Shown here piece after piece: positions 5,057 to 24,234 of a stretch of DNA of 64,000 nt. The DNA lies in NCBI GenBank assembly GCA_041666185.1, contig JBAYHL010000004.1, positions 105 through 64,104 on the forward strand, given 5' to 3'. The stretch is from Patescibacteria group bacterium (GTDB lineage: Bacteria > Patescibacteriota > UBA1384 > UBA12157 > JAENIV01). A model generated the notes under the pieces. It worked only from the letters and a program-made list of their open reading frames with translations. It did not search any database and was not told the DNA's origin. The number at the start of each line of letters is the position of its first letter. Within the stretch, counting starts at the first letter, position 1. The position numbers and the translations under genes were made by a program.

Positions 5057-6067
5057 CTATCTACCAATAGTAACATTAACATTTTTTACATTTTCGCCCG
5101 GGACTAAATCAACTGTTGTCGAGCCTCCGGGAAAAACTAAAACACTGGCAGTAATTTTATGCTTTCCTTCACGAACATTGGGAATAGTATAATCACCAGT
5201 AATACTAGAAACCCCTACCGTTCGATCGTCAAGAGAAATTGTTGCTGGTACTAAAAGTGGATAGTTGCCAGCCATTTGGACTTTTCCAGTAATTGAACCT
5301 GCTAAATTAGAAGGTAACGGTTCCATAGCAATATCTAGCTTTGTCGCAGAAAAGCAAGCCAAGGAAACCGAAAAACTTGAATCTTGATAGCCACGAGACT
5401 TGGCAGTAATCGTATGAGAACCAAAAGGTACAATCCAAGAATAACTGCCGTTCGCATTAGGCGAACCTACACCATCAACATCAGTTGCAACTGAAAGAAT
5501 TTTCTGTGAACTTGTTTTGTCTAAAATAGAACCGCTAATTTCCGCCCCATACCACTCAAAATGCATCGCATCACGTTCACCAGGCCAATCACCTCCCCAA
5601 GCAAAACCATATTTTTTAAAGATATCTATAACAACTTGTGGAATATCTGTTTGTGACGGTCCGTAGTTTCCCGGTTGATAAGGATTGGCTTCAGGATTTA
5701 TATCAATAGCAATTCCCCATGAATGTAAAGATTTACCCCCACCACCTACCTTAGAACGATTATTATATGTCTGAATGTTGGTAAAATTATAACCAGTTTT
5801 TGCGTCATTAACATCTTTTTGGATATGATCTAAGTATGGTGCGACAAGTTTATTTATAAGGACTTCGTTGCCAAATAAATTATAACTTTCTAAATTAGTC
5901 CCTGGTTTACCAAAAAAACTCGAAATATCTCTCGAGTTTTGACACCCAATAACCGCTTCGGCGCCAGTTTTGATAATACCTGCAGCACGCAGATATAAGT
6001 AGACACCAAAGCTTACACCAACAAATAGGATAATTATTAAAATTATAACTCTGGTTTTAATTGCCAT
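5057..6067 (-). CDS. Membrane-anchored peptidase M15 (VanY / D-Ala-D-Ala carboxypeptidase-like) with a C-terminal carboxypeptidase-regulatory-like beta-sandwich
   Basis: N-terminal TM helix. Zn-binding motifs HSWGIAIDINP and AWGGDWPGERDAMHFEW. Confidence 0.8.
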   Translation of the reverse strand: MAIKTRVIILIIILFVGVSFGVYLYLRAAGIIKTGAEAVIGCQNSRDISSFFGKPGTNLESYNLFGNEVLINKLVAPYLDHIQKDVNDAKTGYNFTNIQTYNNRSKVGGGGKSLHSWGIAIDINPEANPYQPGNYGPSQTDIPQVVIDIFKKYGFAWGGDWPGERDAMHFEWYGAEISGSILDKTSSQKILSVATDVDGVGSPNANGSYSWIVPFGSHTITAKSRGYQDSSFSVSLACFSATKLDIAMEPLPSNLAGSITGKVQMAGNYPLLVPATISLDDRTVGVSSITGDYTIPNVREGKHKITASVLVFPGGSTTVDLVPGENVKNVNVTIGR

Positions 6068-6123: not shown

Positions 6124-9100
6124 TTAATTATTTAATATTTCTCTTGTCTTTGGCCCAACTCGTCCAGCCCCACCTTGCGAAGTATCAATATTGTGATAAT
6201 TCTGATACTCAATCACCGCTTTTTGAGTTATGAAACCAAAATATCCTGTAACATAACGAGAGTCAAGAAACCCTTCACTTACTAGTCTTTCCTGAAGTTT
6301 AGTAACATAATAGCCAGAACTTTCAATGTCTAAATCATAAGGAAAATATACTTTATTAGAATCATCACAAGTTCCCTCAATAGCACAATTTGGGATTATT
6401 CCGTTTTCAATATCTTCATTTAAGGCTGCTCTTGTTCTTGGACCAAAGAAACCAGCTCCCCAATCCCACCAACTGGCAACTATTGCTTTTGACTTCTGAT
6501 ATAGGAATACTGCTTGTTTAGTAATACTGCCATAGAAACCAGTAGAATCTACCCAAAATGGAAAATAACCAAGATATCTTAAAACATTTTGCAAAATTCG
6601 AACATTTGCTTGGTTGTCCCCAGAAAAATAAGGCGCTTGATCGTTATTAAAACGAAATGAAGATTGTTGACCACTTTCTTGAGAAGAAGGACTAGTACTA
6701 GGAATTGGGGTAGGCGTAGGTTTTGAAGACTTACTACCATGACCTTGAGACAATGTTGTTTCTGAGCTAGATGGAGAAACTGCTGTTTCAATATTGTTGC
6801 CATTCCTAGCTTTAACTCTGTAAGCATAAGTTGTTGAGTGGACTAACCCAGTATTAGTTATACCAGTTGCTTCACCCCAAGTAGCGTAATCTTGCCAAAC
6901 GGCGGTATCACCATTACTACCATCAGCTTGGACATATTTACCTAAAGCTTCATTGGAAATAGCAAATTGAGTTGCTGCTGAATTGCCATTAACATTAATA
7001 ATTACCTTAAGCGAAGTGCTTGAAGATCGATTTACTGTTGACGCTAAAGGCACGTTAGCCAAAGTATAAGTTGAAGCGGCTGTACCAGAATGAGGAGATT
7101 GACCGGAATCATTATAAGAAACAACATAACGACCAGAATACTCCGTATTAACCGAAAGTCCAACCTCGTCACAAGAAGTTAAATCAACTCCTACACAAGT
7201 TGCCTTTAAAGTGTCTGTCGCATCATATACTTTAAAACCTACTTCATTTGGATTTACGTCAGTAAATTTCCAACGAATAGCAGCTACTGAAATTGCTTCT
7301 GGTGTGCCAATCGTTGGTGCATCTGGTGGGAAAAAATTCCAACCAGGATTATTGTTACCCGAATCAGTAACGTTATCTCCCGGGGTAATTCTAAAAGCAT
7401 TGTTTATATTTTGACTATCGGAAACATCAATATAATCGCCAGAAATCATATCGCCAGAAATAACAAAATACCAAGCCGTATCTGGCACTGAGCTACGAAG
7501 AGCCAAAACATTCCCAACAGAACCGTCTAAAGTCCATGTATCATTTATGGTCTGAGTTGCCCCCGCGGCAAAAGTAATAGTTTTAGCCCCATCAACTGAA
7601 GTATCCATAATTAAATTGTTGAAAGTCGTTGAGCCAGAAATTGCCGCAGCGTTGGTCGAATCAAAAGTAATAGTTTGTGTTCCAGGAGTTGTTCCAGCAG
7701 TAAATGAACCACCAGAAATATTCCAATTTTTAGCCATATTTATATTCAACCCATCAGCATTAAATACGCCATCTGAATTAGTAAAATTACCATCGATATT
7801 CAAAGCATTGGTAGAAAGTTGTAATGTGCCAGCGCCAGAGTGAGTTAAATTGTTGAATAACTTACCAATGCCTGTGCCACCCGAATCAAGAGTTTGAGTA
7901 CCAGAGGATTTAGTAAAATCCACTATGCCACTACCCGGAGTAAAAGTACCAGAATTTATCCAATTACCACCAACATTTATCGTACCGGAAGTAGCAAAGA
8001 GTATAGTATTTAAATTAATTGTTATATCACCATTTACTGTTAAAATATTTGAAGAAATATCTAGAGTATTAGGACCAATCGACAAAACATAAAGCGAAAG
8101 ATTGCCTTCCGCTACTGTTGTACCGGATAGACTATAAGTTACGCTCTGTTCTTCTGCTAGAGCAGCGGAGTTGTATAAATTTATATTATGATAAATATCA
8201 TTGGGTAAAATATTTGAACCGTAGGCATAATAAGCAAATGTTGCATTATTAGTCGTCCAGTCAACTGTACCACCATTATGAGTATAACTACCAAAAACTG
8301 AAAAACTTCCTACATTAACCTGACCACTGCCAGCTGTAAAAGTTCCATTTGTTACATTAAAAATTTTTCCAACGATCGAACCACTCCCACCAATCAAAAC
8401 TCCACCATTTATAGTAATAGTAGTCGCTGAAGATAGTATGGAAGCGCTGCCAAGACTAACTGTTCCTGTATTTAATGTGCCAGCGGTAACATTTAAATTC
8501 CTAATAGTAGTTAAATTACTAGTATTTAGAGTCCAACCACCACCAGCACCATTAACAGTTAAAGTATAGAAACCAGAAGCACCGCCATTGATTGTTTTCC
8601 CTGTTGCGCCGCCATCTAAAGTAACAGTTCTTGTTTCTTTATCAAAAGTCGCCGTGTTGCTCCATGACCCCGCAACGGTCATATCGCGACTATTAACATC
8701 AAAAGTACCAGCAGAGTTAGTGAAGTCACCATCAATGTTTATGTTATTAGTCAAAAGCTGCAAAATTCCAGCACCAGAGTGAGTAATGTTATTAAAAATT
8801 TTCCCTACGCCCGTACCACCAGAATCAAGAGTTTGAGTACCAGAGGATTTGGTAAAATTAACAGTAGAAGAACCAGAAACAAAAACACCACCAGCAGCAT
8901 TTGACCAATTACCACCGACTGCAATAGTAGACAATGAATCGCTTGCATCAAGAGTTCCATTAATGGTTACATTTACTGCTGTTAGATTATAATCAATTGT
9001 TGAAGGTCGTAGATCTAAAGTTGCATTAGCATTAACAGTCAAGTTGCCAGACATGGCTTTAGTGCCTGTAAGATTTCCTGTTAATGAGTAAGTTGTTGGA

Positions 9101-11529
9101 GTGGTTGGAGCAACAGTCAGGTTGTTGTAAGCATAAGTAATAATGTTTGTACTAGAACCAGTTCCCGTATAAGTGAAAGTTGAGTTAGTGCCTTTATTGA
9201 AAATAGCCACTGATATAGGACTTCCAGTTCCAGTTAAATTTAAATTATAACCACCACTTCCCATGTTAAAACTATAAACCATAACTCGGGTTGCTGTAAT
9301 ACTTGAGCCCAAAGTAATTGTAGCTAATCCAGAATCTAATGTTCCCAAATCATCAGCATTTGAAGAAGAATCTGTCAGAGTCGTTGTGCCATCAAAGTAA
9401 AATAAGCCAGAACCCCTTATAAATATAGCAGTACCGGTATTATTCCAGTGTCCGGCAAAATTCATGTTCAAATTATTGGAATCGAAAGTGCCAGCCGAGT
9501 TGGTAAAAATGCCATTAACATCAAGATTATTGGTTATAAGCTGAAGCGTTCCAGTTCCAGAATGAGTAAGATTATTAAAAAATTTTCCAGCATCTACACC
9601 ACCAGAGCTTAAGGTTTGAGTGCTAGAAGCTTTATTGAAAATAACTGTTGAAGTGTTAGCGGTGAAAGTACCTGAATTAGCCCAGTTTCCAGTACAGGTA
9701 ATAGTTGAAGCATTTGCTGTCAAAGTTCCAGCAATAGTAACGTTGCCAGTAACCGTAATATTTCTATTAGTCGTTCCATCATTAGTTGTTAGGGTGCCAG
9801 CGGTCACATCTAAATCACCATTAACCGTGGTTGTAGCAGTGGCTGGTAATCTGAATGTGCCACCCGTACCATTAATTTTTAAATTATAATATGTCCAATT
9901 TCTAATGTTTCTTGTACCAGAAGTGGCAGAATACTCAACCGTGCCGTGAGCTGTGTCATTTGTTAAGCTGACAGTTGTTTCGTCACCAGTTTGTTTTAAT
10001 GTGCCATTATTAGTAAAAACACCCGTAACAGTAAGATTGTGACCATTAATGTCTAATGTTTTACTTGCTCCTATAGTTAAAGTACCAGAAGCAGTAATAT
10101 CTGCTCCGGCAGTTAAACTTGTGCCATTCAAATTCATGACAGTGGATGTTGTTATTGTATTAGCACCTTGAGTAATGGCACCTATGTAAGCAGCTTGAAA
10201 ATCAAGCGTTGCAACATCAATAGCAGTATCAATTGTTAACGCGCCATTGTGAGCGCTGCCGGCATTGTCAAAAATGGCTGTATCTCCGGCTACTGGCACT
10301 GTTGCGCCACCCGTACCGCCAGATGTATCTGACCAGTTAGCAGTATCATTCCAATTGCCGCTTGTGTTATTAATCCAGTAGCGAGTAGCTGGGCCAGAAG
10401 AAGTTGCTATGCTATTGTCGAAATAAACATTGTAAGGACTAGCAGCACCGTTAGTCCAAGAAAGAAAAGCTTTGCTACCAGTCGTTTGATAACTTGCAGA
10501 AGGGCTAACATTGGTTCCTGTTCCATAAAGAGATGTGGCGGCGGCATCCCAATTGGCTAAAGCATAAGGAGAAACACCTTTTTTGTAATATATTGTATTC
10601 GTGTTTGCATAAAAAGCGTAAAGATCGCCAGACGCTGTATCTATAGTAATTGAAGGATGGGTAGCACTACCAGATTGAATTGTTACAGCACTCGACCATG
10701 TCCCGGAATATTTTGTGTAATAGATTGAACCGGAAGAAAGATATTCTAAATGAATATTGCCCGATGCATCTGATACTAAAGAATAGTCTGTGGTCGCGGT
10801 GCTGACCACAGTAGTTGCAGAAGCATCCCAACTAGAGCTAGCATTAGTATATTTTTTCCCAGCTAAAGTAGTTCCGCTAACCCAGGCTGCATATATATCT
10901 CCTCCTGTAAGAGGAACAATATTAACGCTAGTAAGGTCTGTGCTAAGAGTGTTAATAGCATCCCAAGCAGTTATGTCATTAACATTCGTTGATCTTCTGG
11001 CAAAAATTCCACTTGCTCCATAACCACCATCATCATAAGGCCAAGCCACCCATATTTTGTTGTTTGTATCCTGAGTAATAACGGGAGCACCAGTAATCGA
11101 ATATGCACCACTTGCTGTCACGGGAGAACCCCATGTAATAGAGGTAGCAGCGGCAGTGCCTTGTCTGACATTAAGAACGATCCCATTTGATGTTGCAAGA
11201 TATACAGTTGTGCCGTTGGCCCAAATTGAAAAATCAGAAGTATTTTCAGCAATTGTGCCTGTTCCATTCCATGTCACTCCATCAGTTGAGTATTTGTAAG
11301 CAATAGCCGAGCCATTATAATAAAACGACCAATAGGTAGAATTCGTGCTGTCATAAAAGCTCTTTCTATATTCGGCTCCAGTGGTGGCACTAGCGCTAGT
11401 TGATGTTCCAATCGTTACTGGCGCTGCGTAAGCAGTTTCATAAGGAGGACCAAAAATACCATAAACTATGGTAAATAATAAAAAAATTAGTAGAAAAAAT
11501 TTATAAATATTGCGTACCGGAATTATCAC
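6124..11529 (-). CDS. Giant (1801 aa) cell-wall-associated surface protein: Asp-box/BNR N-terminal region, long Thr/Ser/Asn/Gly-rich beta-helix-like repeats, FN3-like modules, two C-terminal peptidoglycan-binding domains
   Basis: Signal/TM at the N-terminus. The Asp-box motif is YSTDGVTW. A ~70-aa unit (FTKSSGTQTLDSGGTG.GK.FNN.THSGAG.LQL..N.) occurs three times. The C-terminus has PG_binding_1-like ...LQERLVSEGFLDSRYVTGYFGFITQKAVIEYQ and VLRYLGYFP...GSITKQAVFLYQ. It has a GTG start with an AAGGAGG RBS, ~80 nt downstream of 5S. Confidence 0.85.
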   Translation of the reverse strand: MIIPVRNIYKFFLLIFLLFTIVYGIFGPPYETAYAAPVTIGTSTSASATTGAEYRKSFYDSTNSTYWSFYYNGSAIAYKYSTDGVTWNGTGTIAENTSDFSIWANGTTVYLATSNGIVLNVRQGTAAATSITWGSPVTASGAYSITGAPVITQDTNNKIWVAWPYDDGGYGASGIFARRSTNVNDITAWDAINTLSTDLTSVNIVPLTGGDIYAAWVSGTTLAGKKYTNASSSWDASATTVVSTATTDYSLVSDASGNIHLEYLSSGSIYYTKYSGTWSSAVTIQSGSATHPSITIDTASGDLYAFYANTNTIYYKKGVSPYALANWDAAATSLYGTGTNVSPSASYQTTGSKAFLSWTNGAASPYNVYFDNSIATSSGPATRYWINNTSGNWNDTANWSDTSGGTGGATVPVAGDTAIFDNAGSAHNGALTIDTAIDVATLDFQAAYIGAITQGANTITTSTVMNLNGTSLTAGADITASGTLTIGASKTLDINGHNLTVTGVFTNNGTLKQTGDETTVSLTNDTAHGTVEYSATSGTRNIRNWTYYNLKINGTGGTFRLPATATTTVNGDLDVTAGTLTTNDGTTNRNITVTGNVTIAGTLTANASTITCTGNWANSGTFTANTSTVIFNKASSTQTLSSGGVDAGKFFNNLTHSGTGTLQLITNNLDVNGIFTNSAGTFDSNNLNMNFAGHWNNTGTAIFIRGSGLFYFDGTTTLTDSSSNADDLGTLDSGLATITLGSSITATRVMVYSFNMGSGGYNLNLTGTGSPISVAIFNKGTNSTFTYTGTGSSTNIITYAYNNLTVAPTTPTTYSLTGNLTGTKAMSGNLTVNANATLDLRPSTIDYNLTAVNVTINGTLDASDSLSTIAVGGNWSNAAGGVFVSGSSTVNFTKSSGTQTLDSGGTGVGKIFNNITHSGAGILQLLTNNINIDGDFTNSAGTFDVNSRDMTVAGSWSNTATFDKETRTVTLDGGATGKTINGGASGFYTLTVNGAGGGWTLNTSNLTTIRNLNVTAGTLNTGTVSLGSASILSSATTITINGGVLIGGSGSIVGKIFNVTNGTFTAGSGQVNVGSFSVFGSYTHNGGTVDWTTNNATFAYYAYGSNILPNDIYHNINLYNSAALAEEQSVTYSLSGTTVAEGNLSLYVLSIGPNTLDISSNILTVNGDITINLNTILFATSGTINVGGNWINSGTFTPGSGIVDFTKSSGTQTLDSGGTGIGKLFNNLTHSGAGTLQLSTNALNIDGNFTNSDGVFNADGLNINMAKNWNISGGSFTAGTTPGTQTITFDSTNAAAISGSTTFNNLIMDTSVDGAKTITFAAGATQTINDTWTLDGSVGNVLALRSSVPDTAWYFVISGDMISGDYIDVSDSQNINNAFRITPGDNVTDSGNNNPGWNFFPPDAPTIGTPEAISVAAIRWKFTDVNPNEVGFKVYDATDTLKATCVGVDLTSCDEVGLSVNTEYSGRYVVSYNDSGQSPHSGTAASTYTLANVPLASTVNRSSSTSLKVIINVNGNSAATQFAISNEALGKYVQADGSNGDTAVWQDYATWGEATGITNTGLVHSTTYAYRVKARNGNNIETAVSPSSSETTLSQGHGSKSSKPTPTPIPSTSPSSQESGQQSSFRFNNDQAPYFSGDNQANVRILQNVLRYLGYFPFWVDSTGFYGSITKQAVFLYQKSKAIVASWWDWGAGFFGPRTRAALNEDIENGIIPNCAIEGTCDDSNKVYFPYDLDIESSGYYVTKLQERLVSEGFLDSRYVTGYFGFITQKAVIEYQNYHNIDTSQGGAGRVGPKTREILNN
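7700..9640 (-). repeat. Three intragenic coding repeats (~210 nt each, at ~7700-7925, ~8650-8860 and ~9430-9640) inside the giant surface-protein gene
   Basis: A 29-nt stretch gaatcaagagtttgagtaccagaggattt is identical at 7883-7911 and 8822-8850. The third copy, at 9604-9633, has diverged. The antisense ORFs at 7616-7843 and 8588-8782 both end in ...SC.(I/V)PAPE, mirroring the repeat. Confidence 0.8.
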
Positions 11530-11865: not shown

Positions 11866-14780
<2,915 letters not shown>

Positions 14781-14893
14781 CAACTACCAAGGCACTGATG
14801 ATTCTGTTGTTAAAGTAGCCAGATTACTGGATAATCGGATGAATAGAGCAATCTCTAATCCTCTGATTATCTAACAACCTTTATTTATGATGT

Positions 14894-14918
14894 TAAAAAA
14901 ACCGCCTTGACGGCGGAC
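14894..14918 (-). terminator. Rho-independent terminator downstream of the pilin-LTD gene
   Basis: The minus strand reads CCGCCGUCAAGGCGG followed by UUUUUUU. Confidence 0.6.
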
Positions 14919-15052
14919 AAAACACAAAGTTAGCTTAAAAAAGCTTACGTTGTTAGCCGCGCGCCCCCTCTCCTAGATTGTCTTTTCCATACATCAGTTT
15001 TAACTCCTTTTTGATTTTAACAAGACCTTTGATTATTGTCAATAGTTTTCTA

Positions 15053-16213
15053 TTAAAAAGAACCTGGATTTGGACTTGCGTCATCGACAAAGCCACTGGT
15101 TGCACTAGTTCTAGCCAATGAATGGCCTTCAGCAACATCGGCTAAATGAGGAAGGGGTGTTGCAGTTGTTCCCCAGCTTAATTGATCAACTACCTGATCA
15201 TATGGATTCTTCAATTCAAGAGAGTCGCCATTGTTGTTTAAAAAAAAAGCGCTTGCTACGAAAATTTTTGCGTCAGGATATCCTGGCCATTTAGCAATAA
15301 ACCCCACTCCTGTAGTAGGTATTATCATAGCGAACTCATGAGACCCAATAGTAGTTGTGCGACCAGCAGCTTTTTCGAGTCCGGCTATATTGCCTACAGA
15401 TCCATAGAGGGAAGAAATTTTCCATCCATCCATATCAACAGATCCAGACGTTGGGTTGTAAAGTTCAATCCATTCAAAACTTTGTTCCATACCATCATTC
15501 CCCCCTGGTCCATAACTTCCTGACGGACCTTTGTCTGGGGCAACATCGTAATAAACCTCAGAAATTATCACATTCCCACCATTACTAATTGCTGGGGGAG
15601 GAGGATCTGACGGCTTCCATGTAGAGGCATCTAAACTATAAACTTCATACATTTTTGACGAAACACCAGTAGACGGCATTACTCCGCCATCATTAATCAT
15701 TAGTTCGTTTCCTTCTTCCAACCGTGCCATCAATTTGTAACCTGAACCATTAGAACCGTAATAATAGGCATAGGTTTCTGTTGTGCCCGCTTCATCACTA
15801 TAAGCTTTACCTTGAAGAGGATCTTGTGGTAAAGGTGATAAATAAACTTTTAAAATATTATGAAGCGAATTAGCGTTGTCAGTAAACCAAGAACGCACAG
15901 TCGCTGACGAATCACAACTTGCCTCGCATGTATTACTACTTAAAACCCAACTTGAACCAGTGCTTGGATAAGTACCTTTTTCATTTTTATATGTCTCTAG
16001 CGCTCCACGAATTGCATCCAAATTAGTAACTCTTTTACTGTCACGACTTTTTCTTCTGGCAGGAGCAAGACTAGTAATTACAAGACCAGCAACAACCACA
16101 ACAATCATTACCACTACTAAGAGTTCTATTAAGGTAAACCCCGACACCAATCGATGATTGGTTGTGGGGGTAAAACTACGTTTTTTTTGCTTAAGATATT
16201 TTTCTTGTCGCAT
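15053..16213 (-). CDS. Type IV pilin / pseudopilin with a C-terminal lamin-tail domain (LTD)
   Basis: Class III (prepilin) signal: basic leader then G|FTLIELLVVV. The C-terminus has LTD motifs VIISEVYYD, EWIELYNPT..VDMDGWKI and NNGDSLELKNPYDQVVDQLSWG. Confidence 0.85.
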   Translation of the reverse strand: MRQEKYLKQKKRSFTPTTNHRLVSGFTLIELLVVVMIVVVVAGLVITSLAPARRKSRDSKRVTNLDAIRGALETYKNEKGTYPSTGSSWVLSSNTCEASCDSSATVRSWFTDNANSLHNILKVYLSPLPQDPLQGKAYSDEAGTTETYAYYYGSNGSGYKLMARLEEGNELMINDGGVMPSTGVSSKMYEVYSLDASTWKPSDPPPPAISNGGNVIISEVYYDVAPDKGPSGSYGPGGNDGMEQSFEWIELYNPTSGSVDMDGWKISSLYGSVGNIAGLEKAAGRTTTIGSHEFAMIIPTTGVGFIAKWPGYPDAKIFVASAFFLNNNGDSLELKNPYDQVVDQLSWGTTATPLPHLADVAEGHSLARTSATSGFVDDASPNPGSF

Positions 16214-16327
16214 TTTTCCCCATTTATATTTATATCTTAAACTTTTTATTTTTTTTAATCAATAAAAAAATGGAGAAAAATTACTTTTAGCAAAAATTTC
16301 TCCATTTTTTCTCTGTTACTTAACAGA

Positions 16328-17020
16328 CTATTTTAATTCTTTACGAATTTTTTCCAAAATGTCTTGGGCCACGTCTTTACCGCCCAAACCAAAAGCAAGT
16401 CCACCAGCAATTGCCAAGAAAGCTACCAAACCAATAAACATGGTTCTAATAAGCGCTTCGGCAATACCTAGTTGGACCAAAACAGCCAAGAATGTGAAAA
16501 CAATAATTGCATAACGGACAATTGCTGCAATTGCGTCTGACATGGCAAAATCAGCTGCCGCCATGGCACCTTTAATCACATTTGACAAGAAATGAGCTAA
16601 AACTAACCCAATAAGCAAAATGGCACCAGCAGCAACAGCTGTTGGGACATAAGCAAGAATCTTGTCTAAGAATAATGCGACATCAGGCAATTTTAAGGTA
16701 TTAGCAGCCGCAATAAAGACAACTAGATAAATTATCCATTTAGCTACTGACGACAATAAAGCTGTTGTGTCTTTATCAATATTGCCTTTTTTCAAAACAT
16801 CTTCGACTTTAGCTTTTTCAAACAAGGTTTGTAAACCAATAATTCGAAAAAGTCGGTCGATAACAATCGCAACAATTATACCAATAAGCCAACCAATAAC
16901 TAAAATGATAATTGCGCCAATAAGATTAGGCAAGAAATTTACAAAACGATCCCAAATTGCTGTCCAACTGTCGGTTACCGCAGTTGTCCAATCTTGTAAA
17001 ACCATTTTTTCCTCTTTCAA
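16328..17020 (-). CDS. Polytopic membrane protein with MscS-associated 'TM-helix' type repeats (function unknown)
   Basis: 230 aa with repeated hydrophobic segments and short K/E-rich termini. Family assignment is weak. Confidence 0.5.
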   Translation of the reverse strand: MKEEKMVLQDWTTAVTDSWTAIWDRFVNFLPNLIGAIIILVIGWLIGIIVAIVIDRLFRIIGLQTLFEKAKVEDVLKKGNIDKDTTALLSSVAKWIIYLVVFIAAANTLKLPDVALFLDKILAYVPTAVAAGAILLIGLVLAHFLSNVIKGAMAAADFAMSDAIAAIVRYAIIVFTFLAVLVQLGIAEALIRTMFIGLVAFLAIAGGLAFGLGGKDVAQDILEKIRKELK

Positions 17021-17216
17021 AAATTAGAACTAAACTCTCGGATAGCTCGACCTCACTTTCTACCTTAATTAGATATTAAATTAAGGTAGCTCTATCCACA
17101 CTCAAGATATTTCAGATTTGAATATAATTCAAGAAGTTTGTCAAGAGCAAGGAGTATTTTAAAAGGGATGTATTAATACATCCCTTGTTTGTTTGTATAC
17201 CTTATGTTGTAGCAAT

Positions 17217-17795
17217 TTACTTGACAAAAACCCTATTCACCGCATCCCATATTCGGACAATACCAGGATGAGCCTGGACACCTAGTAACTTTTGTCTGTT
17301 AAACAATACTATTCCTTTTTCCGGATAATATTCGCTCGCTCGCAAATGATTTTGAGCGAAAGCCAATTCTTGCGGCGTCATTTCGAAAGCAAAAGTGTCT
17401 GCGAAAACATGCATTGAATATCCACCGACACCATCGGACCAAAGATATTGCTGAATATCACTAGAAGCGAAAAGTCTTCTTAGCCTTTCGACACCAATCA
17501 AAAGGCCCGTGTCATCTTCAAAGTGACGACGAGCGGTTTCCAGCAAAGACTCTCCAGGATTCATACTGCCACCATAAACCCACCATTCATTTTTAGCGGG
17601 CTTTATGCATCTTTTGGCTAAGCAGAGATTGATCTGACGCGTTGGCCGATCATACATCCAAGGCACAACATCACAGCAATGGTAAACAAGTCTCGATACT
17701 GCTCGAGGATATTCTTCGTCAGTTAGTCTAACTTTTGACGGTTGATAACCGTTTTCTACAAAAACACTGCCACCAATAGCTCTGTATTTTTCCAC
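17217..17795 (-). CDS. NUDIX-family hydrolase
   Basis: It has a Nudix-box-like GGSMNPGESLLETARRHFEDDTGL. GC is visibly higher (~45%) than the flanking DNA. Confidence 0.7.
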   Translation of the reverse strand: MEKYRAIGGSVFVENGYQPSKVRLTDEEYPRAVSRLVYHCCDVVPWMYDRPTRQINLCLAKRCIKPAKNEWWVYGGSMNPGESLLETARRHFEDDTGLLIGVERLRRLFASSDIQQYLWSDGVGGYSMHVFADTFAFEMTPQELAFAQNHLRASEYYPEKGIVLFNRQKLLGVQAHPGIVRIWDAVNRVFVK

Positions 17796-17884
17796 AACAA
17801 GGTAACCTCCTCTTTTAACTATTAGAACATGTTACTATACCATAAAAACCCCTTTTCGTCAAGGATTTTAGAGAAGTTGCAACC

Positions 17885-17912
17885 TTGACATTTTGGCAAT
17901 AACAAGTATATT
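17885..17912 (+). promoter_or_regulatory. Sigma70-like promoter for the C-type lectin gene
   Basis: TTGACA (17885-17890), a 16-nt spacer, then TATATT (17907-17912). An AGGAG RBS lies 8 nt before the ATG at 17945. Confidence 0.45.
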
Positions 17913-17944
17913 AGAATAAGTTCTTTAACAGATAGGAGACGAAC

Positions 17945-18694
17945 ATGAAAAAAGTTTTGTTTACCGCTCTTGCTTGCACAGTGTTTTCTCTGCCAAGCAA
18001 TATTTATGCTAGTAGTCATTCTTGGGTATTGTGCCCTCTTAATGGTCACTACTATTCCAAAACAGTTTCACCAGTAATGACATGGAATGAAGCAGAAACT
18101 GAAGCAATAAGTGTTGGTGGTCATTTAGCTACTATTCGCAATACAGCAGAAGAAGAATGGATACTCAAAACTTTTCCGCCAGAAAGACTCTGGATAGGGT
18201 TGACAGATTCAGTCTCGGAAGGTAATTGGTTATGGACTAGTGGTGAACCGGTTACTTACACCAATTGGTCAGCTGGCCATCCTAATAATTCTTCCGAAAA
18301 CCAAGATTTTGCTACAATTTGGGGATCACCACCAACATATCCCGCATACTGGGAATCGCGTTCTGGATACGAAAGAACATCTGGAATAATAGAGATAACA
18401 TCTCTACCGCTGCAAATTGTAAATCTTTTTGGTACAATTTATCAAAAAGATTTACAAGAGCAAGTCATTACAGCACCAGATGTCTTTATAGACATCCTGG
18501 ATGTGAATAGAGAACATTTTGTAGTGTCTGGCAAAACTGATGGTAACGGCAAATTCACTATTCTTGCTGATAACTGGCAAGATAGTACATATATCATTCG
18601 GATAAGAAAAACTGGTTACAAAACAAAAGAAGTAGGGGCTACTCTAAAGAATAGTTCCTCAACACCCTTTTCGACAACATTGGAAACAGAATAA
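17945..18694 (+). CDS. Secreted C-type lectin domain (CTLD) protein with a C-terminal carboxypeptidase-regulatory-like beta-sandwich
   Basis: Signal peptide. CTLD hallmarks are WNEAE..A...GGHLATI, WIGLTD, EGNWLWTSGEPVTYTNW, GHPNN and QDFATI. One of very few plus-strand genes here, and GC is slightly elevated. Confidence 0.85.
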   Translation: MKKVLFTALACTVFSLPSNIYASSHSWVLCPLNGHYYSKTVSPVMTWNEAETEAISVGGHLATIRNTAEEEWILKTFPPERLWIGLTDSVSEGNWLWTSGEPVTYTNWSAGHPNNSSENQDFATIWGSPPTYPAYWESRSGYERTSGIIEITSLPLQIVNLFGTIYQKDLQEQVITAPDVFIDILDVNREHFVVSGKTDGNGKFTILADNWQDSTYIIRIRKTGYKTKEVGATLKNSSSTPFSTTLETE

Positions 18695-18713
18695 ATAGAC
18701 AGATCCTTACTTT

Positions 18714-18751
18714 GGTCAATCAGAGATAACTTCAAGATTGACCTTTTTTAT
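18714..18751 (+). terminator. Bidirectional rho-independent terminator between the lectin gene (+) and the receiver gene (-)
   Basis: GGTCAATC...GATTGACC hairpin followed by TTTTTTA. Confidence 0.6.
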
Positions 18752-18766
18752 TCTTAAAATATTTTT

Positions 18767-19186
18767 TTACTCTAAATACTGTCTAATTTTGTCTACCACT
18801 TGATTTGGCGTAAGATTTGCTTTCACTAAATAGTCGTCGGCACCAAGTTTTCTTGCCATATTAATATCTGTAGCATCACCAAGATTAGAAAAAACGATAA
18901 CTGGTTTTTTGGAAGCTGGCCATCCAGAAGAACGAAGCTGTTTTAAAACATCAAGGCCATTAATTTTCGGAAGTATCAGATCAAGTAAAATCAGATCGTA
19001 ATCAATGGATCCTAATTTTTGAATTGCCTCCAAACCATCGAAAGCACTATCCATTTCAAAACCTTCCATAGCTAGCTTGTCCTGATAGGCTCTGACTAAC
19101 ATTCTATCATCTTCGATGAAAATAATTTTTTTTCTTGTTTGCTGAAATTGACCAGACTGATCTCCATTGTTTTGATTGTTTGTCAT
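18767..19186 (-). CDS. Stand-alone response-regulator receiver (CheY-like) protein
   Basis: 139 aa with the acidic pocket DD and phospho-acceptor D (LILLDLILP), T/S (VIVFSN) and K (LVK) signatures, and no output domain. Confidence 0.9.
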   Translation of the reverse strand: MTNNQNNGDQSGQFQQTRKKIIFIEDDRMLVRAYQDKLAMEGFEMDSAFDGLEAIQKLGSIDYDLILLDLILPKINGLDVLKQLRSSGWPASKKPVIVFSNLGDATDINMARKLGADDYLVKANLTPNQVVDKIRQYLE

Positions 19187-19206
19187 ATTCCCTCCATTTT
19201 TATTTT

Positions 19207-22200
19207 TTACATATCTTTTTCTTTATTAATTTTTAAAATTGGCAATGAAAAGTAAAATGTACTACCTTTACCAAGCTCTGCCTCGACCCAAATTTTACCT
19301 CCACAACCTTCTATAATTTTTCGAGCAATATATAAACCCAAACCAAGTCCCGTTCCTTTACCAAGAGGTATTTTCTTACCATCACTAACCTGGGCATATT
19401 TTTGGAATAGTTCTTTTTGTCGATCTTTAGCTATTCCTATACCCGTGTCCTTTATTGCCACAATAACTGAGTTCTCTTTAGCTAAAACTTCTAAGCTAAT
19501 TGAACCTTTGTCAGTATATTTAATAGCATTATCAAGTAAATTAACAATGGCCTCAGGAATTTTTTCACAATCTGCCATAACTTTAGGTATTTTTGTTGGT
19601 ATTTTATAATTAAATTTTAAACCTTTTTTTTCTATCAATGGTTTTGTTTGCTTAACTATATAACCTAAGATTGGCACTAAATCAATCAATTTAGGAACAA
19701 TAGTAATTTTCCCTTTTTCTATTCGAGACATAGTTAGAAAATCATTAATTATGTTTATTAAATTCGTATTGGCCCTACTAACATCTTCTAAAGGCACTTT
19801 TAACTTAGGAGGAATTTCACCATAGTCACCATCTAGTATCATTTCTGTATTGGCTCTTATAACAGACACGGGAGTTCGTAAATCGTGGGTTGCCATATTT
19901 AAAAAGTCATCTTTAGCCTGTTCCATTCTATTTCGCTCAGTAACGTCACGAAAGCTACCCAGAAGATACATTTTTCTATTAACAATCAACCGCGATATAT
20001 TTATATCAGCATAAAAAATACTACCGTCTTTTCTTAACACCGGAAGGTTTGAAACAAGTTTAAGTTTTCCTTTTACCTGTTCTCTAAATATTTTTTTAAC
20101 AAATGGTGCATCTTTTTTAGGATGAATATCGTCAACCCCTAAATCCAACAATTCTTTTTTTGTATATCTTAGCATATTACATATTGCTGTATTACACGTA
20201 CTAAATTTACTAGTTTCCGGATCAGCAACTAGTAAACCATCTTTAGAATCTTCAAATATAGTTTCGAATTTTATTTCTGATTCTTTTAATTTTTGTTCAA
20301 TTTTTCCATGTTCAACACGAACACGTTGTGAGGTAACACCAAAAGCAAGATCGTCCACTAATTCCTTCAATAGCTTAATTTCATCCAGAGCAAATGTATT
20401 TGATTTAATCGAATAAATACCAATTACACCAAATACTTTATCATCGCCAACAAGTGGTAAAGCAATAATTGACTTATAACCTCGTTTTAAAGCATCTTCC
20501 TTCCATGGGGACATAGTTGGATCTGTAGCAATATCGTGTACAATACTAGGATTGCCTGTACGAATAGCTATCCCTCCTGGCCCGCGACCACGCTCAGTAT
20601 CTGCCCATGTTAACTTGGCTTTTTTAATGTAGCCTGATTCGAGTCCAGCATGAGCTATAGGAAGTATGGTTTTTGCTTCATCATGTTTGACATAACCAAC
20701 CCACGCTAAGCGGTAACCACCAGTTTCAACAATAATACGACACGCCTCACTCAATAAGTCTATTTCGTCTGTAACATGAATTAGCATCTGATTAATTTCA
20801 CCCACCATCCGTAACGCACGGTTTAGTTTTATAAGGTTTACTTCCGCAAGTTTGGCCTCAGTAATATCCCAAGTAAGATCAGCGAAAAAGGAGACTAATT
20901 TAACATCCTGCTCGTCATAATTGCTCGATTTATTTCCAACACCTAGCACAGCCATAATTTTATCACCACGGATCACTGGTACTACTAATTCGCGAACTAC
21001 TTTTGCATGACCTTTTGGCATACCTTTTTTATTCAAAAGAGACTCATAATCATTGTGAATAACCGGCTTGCGCTGATAAACACAATCTACCCAAACACCA
21101 GCTTTTTCTATTGCATAATGTGATCCTTTGCCTTCAGCTTTGCAAAATTCTTTTTTTGTTCTAGTTGACCAATTTTGCAATGTTAGCGTTTTTTGATCGG
21201 AATTTACAAAATGGAAAAAACCAATAAGACTACCTGTGAGTTTTTCTATTTCGTTTAGTGCCTCTTCCAACAGCTCATCCATAGAGTGACTATTGGCAAA
21301 CACTAAAAGACGGGCACGAGCTTTAAGAATATTTTCTGTCTGTTTGCGCTCGGTAATATCTCTAATAATCGCCATGATCGCCGGTTTATCTTTATAAATA
21401 ATCCTGGAAGAATTCACTTCAACCGGTAGCTTATTTCCAGTTTTTGATAAAATTTCTATTTCATATCTATTTGGCGCGTCTTGACCCTTTAATCTTTTTT
21501 CGTACCTTTCCGCGACAATTTTTTTATACTCGGGAGACAAAAAATCTAGAAATGATTTTCCAATACTTTCCTCTTTTGTAAAACCTGTCATTTGGCAAAT
21601 TACTGAGTTTACGTACTCAAGCACACCTGCACCCTGTATAACTAAAATGCCATCGTTTCCTTTTTCTACCAAAGTTGAGTATTTTAGTTCGGAAGCTTTT
21701 AACTCCTCTTCTGTCTGTTTGCGCTTGGTAATATCACGAATATTGCATTGAATTATTAATTCCCCATCTGTCCTATAAGCATTGGCAATAAATTCAACTT
21801 CAATTTTTTTTCCATTTTTAGTTTCTAATAGTAAATTATTGAAATGAACATGTTTTTTGGCTTGCAAGGCAAGAAAATGCTTTTTCGACATAATAATGTC
21901 TTTAAAAACACCAATTTCCCAAAGATGTTTTTTTTGAAAATCAGCTTTAGAGTAGTTAAGTAAATTAATTAAAAACGGATTAACGTCTTTAATTATTCCT
22001 GTCTTAAAATCGACCAAAAGTATACCGTCTTGAGCCGTTTCAAATAACCGACGATAACGCAACTCTGATGTTTCTAGCTTGTCTTGTTCCTTTTTTTTGC
22101 GGTAAGTAATATCTTCAATAGCTAAAAGTATTATTTTCGGCTTTTTTGGCGGTCGAGGTATGCGTCGAGCATTCAATAACATCGCTTTTGGCCCAATGGT

Positions 22201-22542
22201 CTCAAAATTATGATCGACTTCGAAACTGTCAAAGAAATTATTTTTAGGAAGAATATCTTCCAACAATTTTTTTAATTTGGGAATATTCCATTGACCATTG
22301 CCTAAATCGTAAATAAACTGATTCGTGGTTTCCTTAGGGTTAACTTTAAAAGTCTGATAGAAGGCTTTATTAGCTAAGATTACTTTTAAATCAGTATCCA
22401 GTACCACCAAAGGTTCTCGTATCGTTGTAATAATTTCTTCAGCATACTCACGAGCTTCCTTTTCCTCTTTAAACAGTTCGGCAAAACGACGTTTTTCCAA
22501 AAAAACGTCGTTTAATTTTTCATTTAACTTCTTTTTGGACAC
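19207..22542 (-). CDS. Multi-domain PAS/GAF sensor histidine kinase (1111 aa)
   Basis: Several PAS (e.g. ...RDITERK...) and GAF modules. HisKA H-box is ATHDLRTPVSVI. HATPase G-boxes are DTGIGI and GTGLGLGLYIARKIIEGCGGKIWV. Confidence 0.9.
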   Translation of the reverse strand: MSKKKLNEKLNDVFLEKRRFAELFKEEKEAREYAEEIITTIREPLVVLDTDLKVILANKAFYQTFKVNPKETTNQFIYDLGNGQWNIPKLKKLLEDILPKNNFFDSFEVDHNFETIGPKAMLLNARRIPRPPKKPKIILLAIEDITYRKKKEQDKLETSELRYRRLFETAQDGILLVDFKTGIIKDVNPFLINLLNYSKADFQKKHLWEIGVFKDIIMSKKHFLALQAKKHVHFNNLLLETKNGKKIEVEFIANAYRTDGELIIQCNIRDITKRKQTEEELKASELKYSTLVEKGNDGILVIQGAGVLEYVNSVICQMTGFTKEESIGKSFLDFLSPEYKKIVAERYEKRLKGQDAPNRYEIEILSKTGNKLPVEVNSSRIIYKDKPAIMAIIRDITERKQTENILKARARLLVFANSHSMDELLEEALNEIEKLTGSLIGFFHFVNSDQKTLTLQNWSTRTKKEFCKAEGKGSHYAIEKAGVWVDCVYQRKPVIHNDYESLLNKKGMPKGHAKVVRELVVPVIRGDKIMAVLGVGNKSSNYDEQDVKLVSFFADLTWDITEAKLAEVNLIKLNRALRMVGEINQMLIHVTDEIDLLSEACRIIVETGGYRLAWVGYVKHDEAKTILPIAHAGLESGYIKKAKLTWADTERGRGPGGIAIRTGNPSIVHDIATDPTMSPWKEDALKRGYKSIIALPLVGDDKVFGVIGIYSIKSNTFALDEIKLLKELVDDLAFGVTSQRVRVEHGKIEQKLKESEIKFETIFEDSKDGLLVADPETSKFSTCNTAICNMLRYTKKELLDLGVDDIHPKKDAPFVKKIFREQVKGKLKLVSNLPVLRKDGSIFYADINISRLIVNRKMYLLGSFRDVTERNRMEQAKDDFLNMATHDLRTPVSVIRANTEMILDGDYGEIPPKLKVPLEDVSRANTNLINIINDFLTMSRIEKGKITIVPKLIDLVPILGYIVKQTKPLIEKKGLKFNYKIPTKIPKVMADCEKIPEAIVNLLDNAIKYTDKGSISLEVLAKENSVIVAIKDTGIGIAKDRQKELFQKYAQVSDGKKIPLGKGTGLGLGLYIARKIIEGCGGKIWVEAELGKGSTFYFSLPILKINKEKDM

Positions 22543-22639
22543 ATTACCCCCTCACCTATTTTATTAATTTTTAGTTATATTAGCTTAAAAAACTAATGCT
22601 TGTTTGTTTTTGTTTTTTACAAATTACATTTTTATTATA

Positions 22640-22667
22640 TCAAAAAAACTACAATTGTTGTAGTTTC
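22640..22667 (-). terminator. Rho-independent terminator between the tRNA-Ala islet and the sensor-kinase gene
   Basis: A perfect 9-bp stem, aaactacaa / ttgtagttt, followed on the minus strand by UUUUUUU. Confidence 0.5.
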
Positions 22668-22687
22668 AAATACATTATGGTGGACCT

Positions 22688-22700
22688 GAGGCTAAAAACT
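22688..22700 (-). repeat. 13-bp direct repeat of the tRNA-Ala 3' end (partner at 23361-23373)
   Basis: tggtggacctgag is identical at both sites. The flanks are partly similar (ttggaacccc versus ttgaacctcc). Confidence 0.7.
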
Positions 22701-22886
22701 TGGAACCCCTTCTTCGAGTATATATTCGAATGGTATCCAATACTAAAAGAAATATACGAACCTTAATAAGTTTCCACTAATCAACTCCAAAGAATTAGTA
22801 TCAAAAAAACTGTCACAACACTAGGAAGTGACAGTCAATAGAGATATATCGAATCTCCACCGGTTAAAAGCACTCGATGCTTGAAG

Positions 22887-23213
22887 TTATTGCAACAGCC
22901 CTTCTTTGAGAGTCGTCTCCACAACAACTCTATCAGCCATTGTCTTGACGGGCTGTCGATCTGTGCCCACTTGCCAGTTTAGATGCATTCCTCCCTCTGT
23001 CGCCTGAGTGACAAAACCATCTCCATTGGGGTGAACAACGACATCATTATGCCCCTTCTTCTTGAAAGTTATTCTCAATTTTTGATTCCTATGAAACTGG
23101 TGACATAGACTCAACACTAGATCCTGAGCGGCATGTAACCCTTGGACCTTCGATACCCTTAGCACAAACTTCATTAGCGTCTCACCTCCCTTATCCTGCA
23201 CATTATATAACAA
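22887..23213 (-). CDS. Hypothetical protein (108 aa) inside the tRNA-Ala-associated GC-rich islet
   Basis: Open frame with ~48-50% GC against ~35% background and no recognisable family. The start may be the internal MKFVLRV. Confidence 0.4.
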   Translation of the reverse strand: MLYNVQDKGGETLMKFVLRVSKVQGLHAAQDLVLSLCHQFHRNQKLRITFKKKGHNDVVVHPNGDGFVTQATEGGMHLNWQVGTDRQPVKTMADRVVVETTLKEGLLQ

Positions 23214-23360
23214 AACACTGATATTGTCAATATTTTAGCGCCTAGATTTAACCAGAGTGAATATAAACTAAATTAAGGATATGCAAACATGATCGACATA
23301 AAGGGTTCCAGCTCCTCTCAAGTATATACAAAAAAAGCAGGACTAAACCTGTTAATTTCG

Positions 23361-23435
23361 TGGTGGACCTGAGAGGATTTGAACCTCCGACCTTCTCCTT
23401 GCAAAGGAGTTGCTCTACCACTGAGCTACAGGCCC
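23361..23435 (-). tRNA. tRNA-Ala (anticodon UGC)
   Basis: The reverse complement is GGGCCUGUAGCUCAGUGGUAGAGC...CUCC-UUUGCAA-GGAG...GGUUCAAAUCC...CAGGUCCACCA. It has the G3:U70 identity pair and an encoded CCA. Confidence 0.9.
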
Positions 23436-23469
23436 ATGATGATAAGTTTTAAGAAAAGAAATACAAGTT

Positions 23470-24128: not shown

Positions 24129-24154
24129 AACTTAATCATCTAACCTTGATAACT

Positions 24155-24234
24155 TGGTGGGCGCACCTGGACTCGAACCAGGGACCTCGTCATTATCAGT
24201 GACGCGCTCTAACCAGCTGAGCTATGCGCCCACC
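24155..24234 (-). tRNA. tRNA-Ile (anticodon GAU)
   Basis: The reverse complement is GGUGGGCGCAUAGCUCAGCUGGUUAGAGCGCGUCA-CUGAUAA-UGACG...GGUUCGAGUCC...GCGCCCACCA. Confidence 0.9.

What the first reader, a model, noticed from the sequence alone, without database searches (positions are those of the whole stretch)
17796..18760. Bacterial C-type lectin domain protein on the opposite strand with its own promoter and terminator
CTLDs are predominantly eukaryotic. This one retains WIGL, the WxWxxG core and a GHPNN plus QDF (EPN/EDC-like) long-loop region, then a transthyretin-like beta-sandwich like the one on the M15 peptidase at 5057. Several features mark it as a separately acquired or regulated unit inside the rRNA spacer block. 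It is one of the few plus-strand genes. It has a near-consensus promoter (TTGACA, 16 nt, TATATT) and a clean terminator hairpin. Its GC is slightly higher than background.
Basis: partly seen in the sequence, partly recalled or inferred. Interest (0 to 1): 0.65.

Follow-up and report, generated by a model that had tools for sequence, protein, structure and literature searches.

The report
Secreted bacterial C-type lectin-like protein
This is a real, separately transcribed gene for a secreted C-type-lectin-fold protein in a candidate-phyla-radiation bacterium, but such domains are common in bacteria, this protein is already annotated as "lectin-like", and it has lost four of the five residues that normally hold the sugar-binding calcium.

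Summary
ORF 17945..18694 (+, 249 aa) has a strong Pfam Lectin_C match (E 1.8e-14), and all quoted motifs are present. It has an 11/12 sigma-70 promoter, an AGGAG ribosome site and an 8-bp hairpin followed by a T-run. It is one of 5 plus-strand ORFs out of 50.

- The domain is not a eukaryotic oddity. Its closest relatives are bacterial, at 40-48% identity. One pattern-limited scan of bacterial genomes gave 143 relatives, mostly Planctomycetota, Verrucomicrobiota, Chloroflexota and Poribacteria, with a few from CPR MAGs.
- The exact protein is already in NCBI as "MAG: lectin-like protein [Patescibacteria group bacterium]".
- The canonical Ca2+/sugar pentad E-N-E-N-D is intact in 36 of 80 aligned sequences (79 relatives plus the query). 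Here it reads H-N-Q-E-S, a combination found only in this protein.
- The domain has no disulfides.
- The C-terminal beta domain is only weakly CarboxypepD_reg-like and shows no detectable similarity to the M15 peptidase's domain.
- Composition is native (GC z 0.73, GC3 z 0.13), so it gives no sign of recent acquisition. The gene is absent beside the three closest relatives of the neighbouring kinase/regulator pair.

Most likely it is an extracellular binding or adhesion module that does not use canonical Ca2+-dependent sugar binding. It is a new member of a known kind, of low interest.

The parts
17885..17912 (+). Sigma-70-type promoter: TTGACA, 16-nt spacer, TATATT
   Evidence: It matches 11 of 12 positions. 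The window holds 9 such sites against 2.5 +/- 1.3 expected by chance, and the others sit upstream of 16S, 23S and protein genes. The -10 element ends 32 nt before the ATG.
17934..17938 (+). Shine-Dalgarno sequence AGGAG, 6 nt upstream of the ATG
   Evidence: Read directly from the sequence.
17945..18694 (+). Coding sequence, 249 aa, including the stop codon: a lectin-like protein
   Evidence: ORF list. The identical protein is NCBI MFA6492895.1, 'MAG: lectin-like protein [Patescibacteria group bacterium]'. It was recovered with the same neighbours from three assemblies that are 99.98-100% identical in DNA.
17945..18013 (+). Probable Sec signal peptide, aa 1-23: MKK, then a hydrophobic core VLFTALACTVFSL, then PSNIYA/SS
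   Evidence: The Kyte-Doolittle maximum is 2.39 at aa 4-14. All nine homologues in alignment A1 also begin with a hydrophobic leader. The cleavage site was judged by eye; no signal-peptide predictor was available.
18017..18409 (+). C-type lectin-like domain, aa about 25-155. It has no disulfides, and the Ca2+ site-2 equivalents are H112, N114, Q120, E137 and S138.
   Evidence: Pfam PF00059 E 1.8e-14. PDB phmmer hits mincle at E 2.6e-15 and Endo180 CRD2 at 51.5 bits. Foldseek places CTLD CRDs on top, with TM-score 0.6-0.78 normalised to the target. The motif table covers 79 bacterial relatives.
18410..18691 (+). C-terminal all-beta domain, aa about 156-249. It is probably CarboxypepD_reg / transthyretin-like but lies below the family thresholds.
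   Evidence: PF13715 E 1.2e-4 (22.5 bits) and PF13620 E 1.8e-3 (19 bits), both against cut-offs of about 32. A single-sequence AF2 model gives 8 strands at pLDDT 62.8. The highest-probability Foldseek match is duck carboxypeptidase D domain II, 1qmu, at prob 0.77 and E 1.6, which is not significant. No sequence homologues were found.
18714..18755 (+). Intrinsic-terminator-like hairpin: 8-bp perfect stem and 14-nt loop, followed by TTTTTTATTCTT
   Evidence: The consensus scan did not call it because the loop exceeds 8 nt. On the minus strand no T-run follows the stem, so it serves only the + strand gene.

Best explanation
The gene is a monocistronic unit (promoter, SD, ORF, hairpin terminator) in a Patescibacteria (CPR) genome. 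It encodes a small exported two-domain protein.

Domain layout:
- A Sec-type signal peptide.
- A C-type lectin-like domain that belongs to a large disulfide-free bacterial branch of Pfam Lectin_C.
- A lineage-specific beta-sandwich of about 90 aa, probably of the carboxypeptidase-regulatory/transthyretin type.

What is shown: homology and fold of the CTLD, the domain order, the transcription signals, the bacterial affinity, and substitution of 4 of the 5 canonical Ca2+ site-2 ligands (E-N-E-N-D becomes H-N-Q-E-S).

What is inferred: the protein is secreted or held at the cell surface and acts as a ligand-binding or adhesion module. The target would be a glycan or another surface polymer of a partner cell or of the environment. 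Binding would use the CTLD long-loop face, but not the classical Ca2+-coordinated EPN/WND sugar-binding mechanism. The C-terminal sandwich would serve as a spacer or a second binding/attachment module, in place of the PEP-CTERM anchor seen on many short relatives.
For: - CTLD identity: Pfam Lectin_C E 1.8e-14. More than 60 solved CTLD chains match at E <= 1e-8. Foldseek top hits all align about 130 columns of canonical CRDs.
- Bacterial family: 143 relatives in GTDB species genomes across many phyla. In the 80-sequence alignment G85, W97, W108 and W136 are invariant, E150 is present in 78 of 80, and 63 of 80 have 0-1 Cys.
- Extracellular location: an N-terminal hydrophobic leader is present here and in all A1 homologues. 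At least a dozen of the 28 short relatives have the layout signal peptide, CTLD, PEP-CTERM-like anchor.
- Degenerate site: shown by the Endo180 CRD2 alignment and the pentad table, where ENEND occurs in 36 of 80 and HNQES only in the query.
- Own transcription unit.
- Real gene rather than an assembly artefact: it was recovered in three assemblies.
- Not a DGR target: no repeat pair touches the gene.
- Not phage- or defence-related: no PHROG or PADLOC match.
Against: - No experimental data exist for any member of this bacterial branch, as far as the paper searches showed.
- The signal peptide was not tested with a dedicated predictor.
- H, Q, E and S can all ligate metals, so a remodelled metal site cannot be excluded.
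- The long-loop region and the C-terminal domain were modelled with low confidence: pLDDT 50-60 and below 50 in the full-length model.
- No orthologue exists in a 5.8-billion-protein collection, so purifying selection could not be measured.
Confidence: 0.55

Rival explanations
1. It is a true metal-dependent lectin. The remodelled pentad H112/N114/Q120/E137/S138 would still hold a cation, either Ca2+ or, because of the His, a transition metal, and that cation would bridge sugar hydroxyls as in classical C-type CRDs.
For: The scaffold around the site is intact: P113, N115, D121 and W136 are conserved. Most relatives keep a full ENEND pentad, so the branch as a whole looks like functional lectins. 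All four substituting residues have side chains that can bind a metal.
Against: Four of the five ligands differ and the combination is unique among 80 sequences. The E-to-H change in EPN and the D-to-S change in WND remove two carboxylate/amide oxygen ligands that, by established knowledge of C-type CRDs, contact both Ca2+ and sugar. The Pfam match stops at profile position 85 of 107, before the WND strand.
Confidence: 0.15
2. It is a CTLD scaffold used for a non-carbohydrate ligand, such as protein, mineral or ice, as in NK-receptor-type CTLDs or fish type II antifreeze proteins.
For: The canonical site is lost. Type II antifreeze proteins (2zib, 2afp) and NKp80 appear among the sequence or fold matches.
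Against: Those matches are no better than the matches to sugar-binding CRDs. Nothing in the sequence points to any particular non-sugar ligand. This rival overlaps with the best explanation, which already allows non-glycan ligands.
Confidence: 0.2
3. It is a recently acquired foreign gene, from a eukaryote or a phage, inserted into the rRNA region.
For: It is a lone + strand gene with its own signals. No CTLD gene lies next to the three closest relatives of the adjacent kinase/regulator pair (65-79% identity), which have other genes there instead. The protein has no orthologue anywhere.
Against: GC and GC3 are typical of the genome, at z 0.73 and 0.13. The closest relatives are bacterial, all about equally distant at 40-43% over the domain, so there is no identifiable donor. 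No repeats or mobile-element features flank it, and there is no PHROG hit. Other + strand genes in the window are housekeeping. The three comparison contigs are short (1.6-2.7 kb).
Confidence: 0.08

Closest known systems
Bacterial Lectin_C (PF00059) 'lectin-like proteins' of Planctomycetota, Verrucomicrobiota, Chloroflexota, Poribacteria and some CPR MAGs
   Same: It shares the same domain family and the same disulfide-free variant. The core is shared: GH-Y at the start, GGHLATIR, WIGL, W-x-W-SGEPV-Y-NW, W136 and the SG-I/V-E strand. It has an N-terminal leader and the CTLD lies at the N-terminus of a short protein.
   Different: The Ca2+ pentad is H-N-Q-E-S, whereas E-N-E-N-D is the commonest form (36 of 80). 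The C-terminus is a unique beta domain rather than a PEP-CTERM anchor or the other tails seen in relatives. Identity to any relative is only 40-48%.
Animal Ca2+-dependent carbohydrate-recognition domains (Endo180/MRC2 CRD2, mincle, langerin, mannose-binding protein, CEL-I)
   Same: It has the same fold and is homologous. Sequence matches reach E 1e-11 to 1e-15, and Foldseek alignments cover about 130 columns with TM-score 0.6-0.78 normalised to the target.
   Different: It lacks the conserved disulfides; the Cys of the EDC motif is Phe here. E-to-H in EPN, E-to-Q in EDC and ND-to-ES in WND remove most of the Ca2+/sugar ligands. It is a bacterial secreted protein, not an animal receptor.
Carboxypeptidase regulatory-like domains (PF13620/PF13715, transthyretin clan), such as the C-terminal domain of the M15 peptidase at 5057..6067
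   Same: The C-terminal 60 residues match both Pfam models in register, and the motif G-x-TD-x-NG-x-F ... Y ... GY is present. The model is all-beta, and duck carboxypeptidase D domain II is the highest-probability fold hit.
   Different: The scores are below the Pfam cut-offs. There is no pairwise similarity to the M15 protein's domain, which does pass its cut-off. No fold match is significant.
CLec-fold variable proteins of diversity-generating retroelements (Mtd/TvpA type), which are frequent in CPR genomes
   Same: The fold superfamily is distantly related, both are ligand-binding surface proteins, and both occur in CPR (PMC11661182 and PMC8144416, listed).
   Different: This protein belongs to a different sequence family: canonical Lectin_C, not the DGR CLec/FGE-sulfatase type. 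No template/variable repeat pair overlaps the gene.

Membership tests
C-type lectin-like domain (Pfam Lectin_C, PF00059) | A profile match above the curated gathering score | tested here: met
   54.8 bits against a cut-off of 22.6, E 1.8e-14, aa 45-125, profile positions 3-85 of 107.
C-type lectin-like domain (Pfam Lectin_C, PF00059) | The CTLD fold: two helices, two sheets and a long loop | tested here: met
   The AF2 model (core pLDDT 73-89) aligns about 130 columns to CEL-I, langerin, Endo180 CRD2, mincle and CD23. E values are 7e-7 to 2e-5 and TM-score is 0.6-0.78 normalised to the target. The long-loop part of the model has low confidence.
C-type lectin-like domain (Pfam Lectin_C, PF00059) | The WIGL motif and the conserved Trp/Gly core | tested here: met
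   WIGL at 83-86, W97, W108 and W136. G85, W97, W108 and W136 are invariant in 80 sequences.
C-type lectin-like domain (Pfam Lectin_C, PF00059) | The two conserved disulfides (C1-C4, C2-C3) | tested here: not met
   The mature protein has a single Cys (C30). The Cys of EDC is F122. 63 of the 80 aligned sequences (79 relatives plus the query) also have 0-1 Cys, so this is a trait of the whole branch. It does not overturn homology.
Ca2+-dependent carbohydrate-recognition domain (classical C-type lectin activity) | The Ca2+ site-2 pentad: E/Q-P-N/D, the E of EDC, and the N-D of WND | tested here: not met
   The query has H112, N114, Q120, E137 and S138, so only 1 of 5 is canonical. ENEND occurs in 36 of 80 aligned sequences.
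Ca2+-dependent carbohydrate-recognition domain (classical C-type lectin activity) | Ca2+-dependent sugar binding | not testable with these tools
   This needs a glycan array, ITC or EDTA-elution on recombinant protein.
CarboxypepD_reg-like domain (PF13620 / PF13715) | A profile match above the gathering score | tested here: not met
   22.5 bits (E 1.2e-4) and 19 bits (E 1.8e-3), against cut-offs of 32.2 and 32.3. The E-values are suggestive only.
CarboxypepD_reg-like domain (PF13620 / PF13715) | A seven-strand transthyretin-like beta-sandwich fold | tested here: inconclusive
   The single-sequence model is all-beta with 8 strands at pLDDT 62.8. No Foldseek hit reaches E <= 1e-3. Carboxypeptidase D domain II (1qmu) has prob 0.77 and TMq 0.48 at rank 15.
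DGR variable protein | A variable repeat in the gene with a nearby template repeat and a reverse transcriptase | tested here: not met
   No direct repeat of at least 40 nt involves 17945-18694.
PEP-CTERM-anchored surface CTLD proteins (a common architecture of short relatives) | A C-terminal PEP motif, a hydrophobic helix and an Arg-rich tail | tested here: not met
   The query ends in ...KNSSSTPFSTTLETE. Relatives such as L009, L011, L014 and L016 end in VPEPSS..RRRK.

The most novel reading that the evidence does not exclude
The CTLD of this host-dependent CPR bacterium has rebuilt its sugar/Ca2+ site into a His-containing site (H-N-Q-E-S). It would be the cell's recognition module for a specific surface structure of its bacterial host. 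That would make it a first handle on how a bacterial, disulfide-free C-type lectin fold mediates episymbiont attachment by a non-canonical mechanism.
Probability: 0.1. Interest if true: 0.55.

Novelty: new member of a known kind. Interest (0 to 1): 0.22.

Why it matters
It matters only modestly. It corrects the impression that a canonical C-type lectin domain in a bacterium is exotic. A disulfide-free Lectin_C branch, mostly with an intact EPN/WND calcium site and often with a PEP-CTERM anchor, is widespread in Planctomycetota, Verrucomicrobiota, Chloroflexota, Poribacteria and some CPR genomes. The paper searches found no experimental study of it. This particular protein is a divergent member with a degenerate site, so it is a poor first choice for characterising the branch. 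It could still interest people looking for surface or adhesion proteins of CPR bacteria.

Tried and rejected
- DGR target: no TR/VR-like repeat was found.
- Phage or defence origin: no PHROG or PADLOC hit.
- Compositional anomaly: GC and GC3 lie within the genome's spread.
- Homologues of the C-terminal domain: nothing came from the word-index search, PDB phmmer, tblastn against 79 CTLD loci, or jackhmmer seeded with the M15 domain over all fetched loci.
- BLASTP of the C-terminal domain against the M15 peptidase: no similarity.
- The 1801-aa neighbour (6124..11529) has the same length as two multi-CTLD database hits, so I checked it. It has no Lectin_C domain, only PG_binding_1.
- Conserved neighbourhood: none of the window's neighbouring genes recurs next to CTLD genes elsewhere. 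The closest kinase/regulator relatives lack the CTLD.
- Taxon names for the closest database homologues P0002-P0009: none are on record.
- Literature on bacterial canonical CTLDs: four searches found no dedicated study.
- Lipoprotein reading of the leader: rejected on my own knowledge of the lipobox rule, because the Cys at position 11 is too close to the N-terminus and -3 is Ala. It was not tested with a predictor.

Full report
**What is there.** The finding's coordinates (17796-18760) enclose one ORF, 17945..18694 on the + strand, with an ATG start and 249 aa. They also cover its upstream intergenic region and a downstream hairpin. All quoted motifs are present: WIGL (aa 83-86), WLWTSG, which is W-x-W-x-x-G (95-100), GHPNN (111-115) and QDF (120-122). 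Pfam assigns aa 45-125 to Lectin_C at E 1.8e-14, 54.8 bits against a gathering score of 22.6. NCBIfam has no model for it.

**Solved-structure matches.** More than 60 solved CTLD chains match at E <= 1e-8. They include mincle (2.6e-15), Endo180/MRC2 CRD2, CD23, langerin and mannose-binding protein. An AlphaFold2 model from a 10-sequence alignment has a mean pLDDT of only 55, but the CTLD core reaches 73-89. Its Foldseek hits in the PDB are all canonical CTLD CRDs, aligned over about 130 columns with TM-score 0.6-0.78 normalised to the target.

**Transcription signals.**
- The promoter TTGACA-16-TATATT at 17885..17912 matches 11 of 12 positions.
- Such near-perfect sites are enriched in this window: 9 against 2.5 +/- 1.3 in Markov simulations. 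The others lie in front of the 16S gene (26946-26918), the 23S gene (15042-15014) and protein genes. The organism therefore appears to use this promoter type.
- AGGAG lies 6 nt before the ATG.
- Twenty nucleotides after the stop codon there is a perfect 8-bp stem (18714-18721 / 18736-18743) with a 14-nt loop, followed by TTTTTTATTCTT.
- The consensus scan did not report the hairpin because of its loop limit. Its energy does not stand out from shuffles (z -1.18), so it is plausible rather than 'clean'.
- The gene is flanked by a divergent NUDIX gene and a convergent response-regulator gene. It must therefore be monocistronic whatever the signals.
- Only 5 of 50 ORFs of at least 100 aa are on the + strand. 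The others include ordinary genes such as a peptide-chain release factor and a STAS protein.

**Organism and setting.** The identical protein is already public as MFA6492895.1, 'MAG: lectin-like protein [Patescibacteria group bacterium]', with Lectin_C precomputed. It occurs with the same neighbours in three assemblies that are 99.98-100% identical to the window. The '16S-23S spacer block' is an unlinked rRNA arrangement. 16S (25165-26619) and 23S (11863-14768) lie 10.4 kb apart, and each is preceded by its own consensus promoter. Unlinked rRNA genes are a described trait of Patescibacteria (bioRxiv 10.1101/705046). Lying in this block is therefore not in itself remarkable.

**Is it a eukaryotic-type oddity?** No.
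- The nearest relatives are bacterial. Nine word-sharing homologues reach 97-122 bits at 36-48% identity over the CTLD.
- A scan of one genome per GTDB species, using only two peptide patterns, returned 143 confirmed relatives. Planctomycetota dominate. Verrucomicrobiota, Chloroflexota and Poribacteria are also represented, the last with tandem arrays of up to six paralogues. There are a few CPR MAGs.
- Single eukaryotic CRDs score only 40-60 bits.
- An exhaustive phmmer search finds 26,410 cluster representatives at E <= 1e-3, a set that mixes bacteria and eukaryotes.

In an alignment of the query with 79 bacterial domains, G85, W97, W108 and W136 are invariant and E150 is nearly so (78 of 80). 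In addition, 63 of 80 have at most one Cys. This is a disulfide-free bacterial branch of the family. At least a dozen of its 28 short members have the layout leader, CTLD, PEP-CTERM-like anchor, which points to a cell-surface location for the branch.

**The binding site.** The HMMER alignment with Endo180 CRD2, a solved sugar-binding CRD, pairs the query's GHPNNSSEN-QDFATIWGS with FEPNNFRDSLEDCVTIWGP. This maps H112 to the E of EPN, N114 to N, Q120 to the E of EDC and F122 to the Cys. The family alignment places E137-S138 at the N-D of WND. Of the five canonical Ca2+ site-2 ligands, E-N-E-N-D, only N114 is kept. ENEND is found in 36 of the 80 sequences, and 62 have E at the first position. The combination H-N-Q-E-S occurs only in the query. 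The protein is a CTLD scaffold whose classical lectin mechanism is probably lost or remodelled.

**The C-terminal domain.** Residues about 156-249 match both CarboxypepD_reg Pfam models in register. The scores are 22.5 and 19 bits against cut-offs of about 32, with E 1.2e-4 and 1.8e-3. The characteristic G-x-TD-x-NG-x-F...Y...GY pattern is visible in the sequence.

Beyond that the evidence is thin:
- There are no sequence homologues.
- There is no BLASTP similarity to the M15 peptidase's domain at 5057..6067, which does pass the Pfam threshold.
- A single-sequence AF2 model is all-beta at pLDDT 62.8.
- That model has no significant PDB match. The highest-probability hit is duck carboxypeptidase D domain II (1qmu, prob 0.77, E 1.6).

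'Transthyretin-like sandwich' is therefore probable but unproven. 'Like the one on the M15 peptidase' holds at most at clan level.

**Acquired separately?** Composition says no. GC is 0.385 against 0.362 +/- 0.032 for the window's ORFs (z 0.73), and GC3 has z 0.13. No repeats flank the gene or overlap it, which also excludes a DGR template/variable pair. No phage or defence family matches it. All relatives are about equally distant, at 40-43% over the domain, so no donor can be named.

In favour of lineage-specific gain, the protein has no orthologue among 5.8 billion clusters. In addition, the three closest relatives of the adjacent kinase/regulator pair (65-79% identity) carry other genes downstream of the regulator: a methyltransferase-like ORF, a purD-like ORF or a small ORF. 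None carries a CTLD or a NUDIX gene. Those contigs are short, so this is weak evidence.

**Mechanism proposed.**
- Shown: an exported-looking leader, a CTLD of a surface-associated bacterial branch, a degenerate Ca2+ site, an extra beta domain, and autonomous expression signals.
- Inferred: the protein is secreted or wall-associated and binds a glycan or another surface polymer through the long-loop face of the CTLD without the canonical Ca2+-sugar bridge. The C-terminal sandwich acts as a spacer or a second attachment module.

The window around the gene is rich in envelope proteins. These include a pilin-like LTD protein, an M15 peptidase and an 1801-aa protein with PG_binding_1. This fits the proposal but does not prove it. 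I give this reading about 0.55. A still metal-dependent lectin gets 0.15, a non-carbohydrate ligand 0.2, and recent foreign acquisition 0.08.

**Verdict.** It is a new, divergent member of a known and already auto-annotated kind, and interest is low (0.22).

Noticed in passing
window 11624-26946: The rRNA genes are unlinked. 16S (25165-26619) and 23S (11863-14768) lie 10.4 kb apart. Each is preceded by its own consensus promoter: 12/12 at 26946-26918 and 11/12 at 15042-15014. ORFs sit between 16S and tRNA-Ile (24350-24982, PsbP-like) and between tRNA-Ile and tRNA-Ala (23658-24128, no Pfam hit).
   Followed up: partly
window 22543-23230 (- strand): A perfect 12/12 promoter (23230-23202) lies just downstream of tRNA-Ala. 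It is followed by about 660 nt of unusually GC-rich sequence before the histidine-kinase start. The ORF there, 22887-23213, has GC 0.45 and GC3 0.47, and its start lies upstream of the -10 box. It has no Pfam hit and the region has no credible Rfam hit. This could be a long leader or an undescribed structured RNA.
   Followed up: partly
window 18767-22542 (- strand): A large soluble-looking histidine kinase (1111 aa, several PAS and two GAF domains) is followed by a receiver-only response regulator (139 aa, no output domain). The pair recurs at 65-79% identity on short metagenome contigs (L083-L085) with different downstream genes.
   Followed up: partly
window 5057-16213: The rRNA genes are flanked by envelope or surface proteins. 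These are an M15 peptidase with a CarboxypepD_reg domain (5057-6067), an 1801-aa protein with three internal repeats of about 200 nt and a C-terminal PG_binding_1 (6124-11529), a pilin-like protein with N_methyl and a lamin-tail domain (15053-16213), and an MscS-type TM-helix protein (16328-17020).
   Followed up: partly
L046-L048, L056-L058, L062-L063, L074, L079 (Poribacteria genomes): There are tandem arrays of two to six paralogous proteins of about 400-440 aa, each with a C-terminal CTLD. Many have altered site motifs (EPM/EPT/KLT, WSD/WYK). This looks like a rapidly diversifying lectin-like gene family in sponge symbionts.
   Followed up: no
L009 5986-6528 and L011 5992-6513 (a Saccharibacteria MAG, GC 0.36-0.37); L001 (labelled Minisyncoccia, GC 0.64): Two small proteins with the layout signal peptide, CTLD, PEP-CTERM-like tail occur in one low-GC CPR MAG. 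That anchor type is unexpected for CPR. The best-scoring 'CPR' relative, L001, sits on a 3.9-kb contig of 64% GC and may be mis-binned.
   Followed up: no
window 59138-59586 (+ strand): An 11/12 promoter ends at 59166, only 6 nt before the annotated start (59173) of a GC-rich STAS-domain ORF. Either the mRNA is leaderless or the true start codon lies further downstream.
   Followed up: partly
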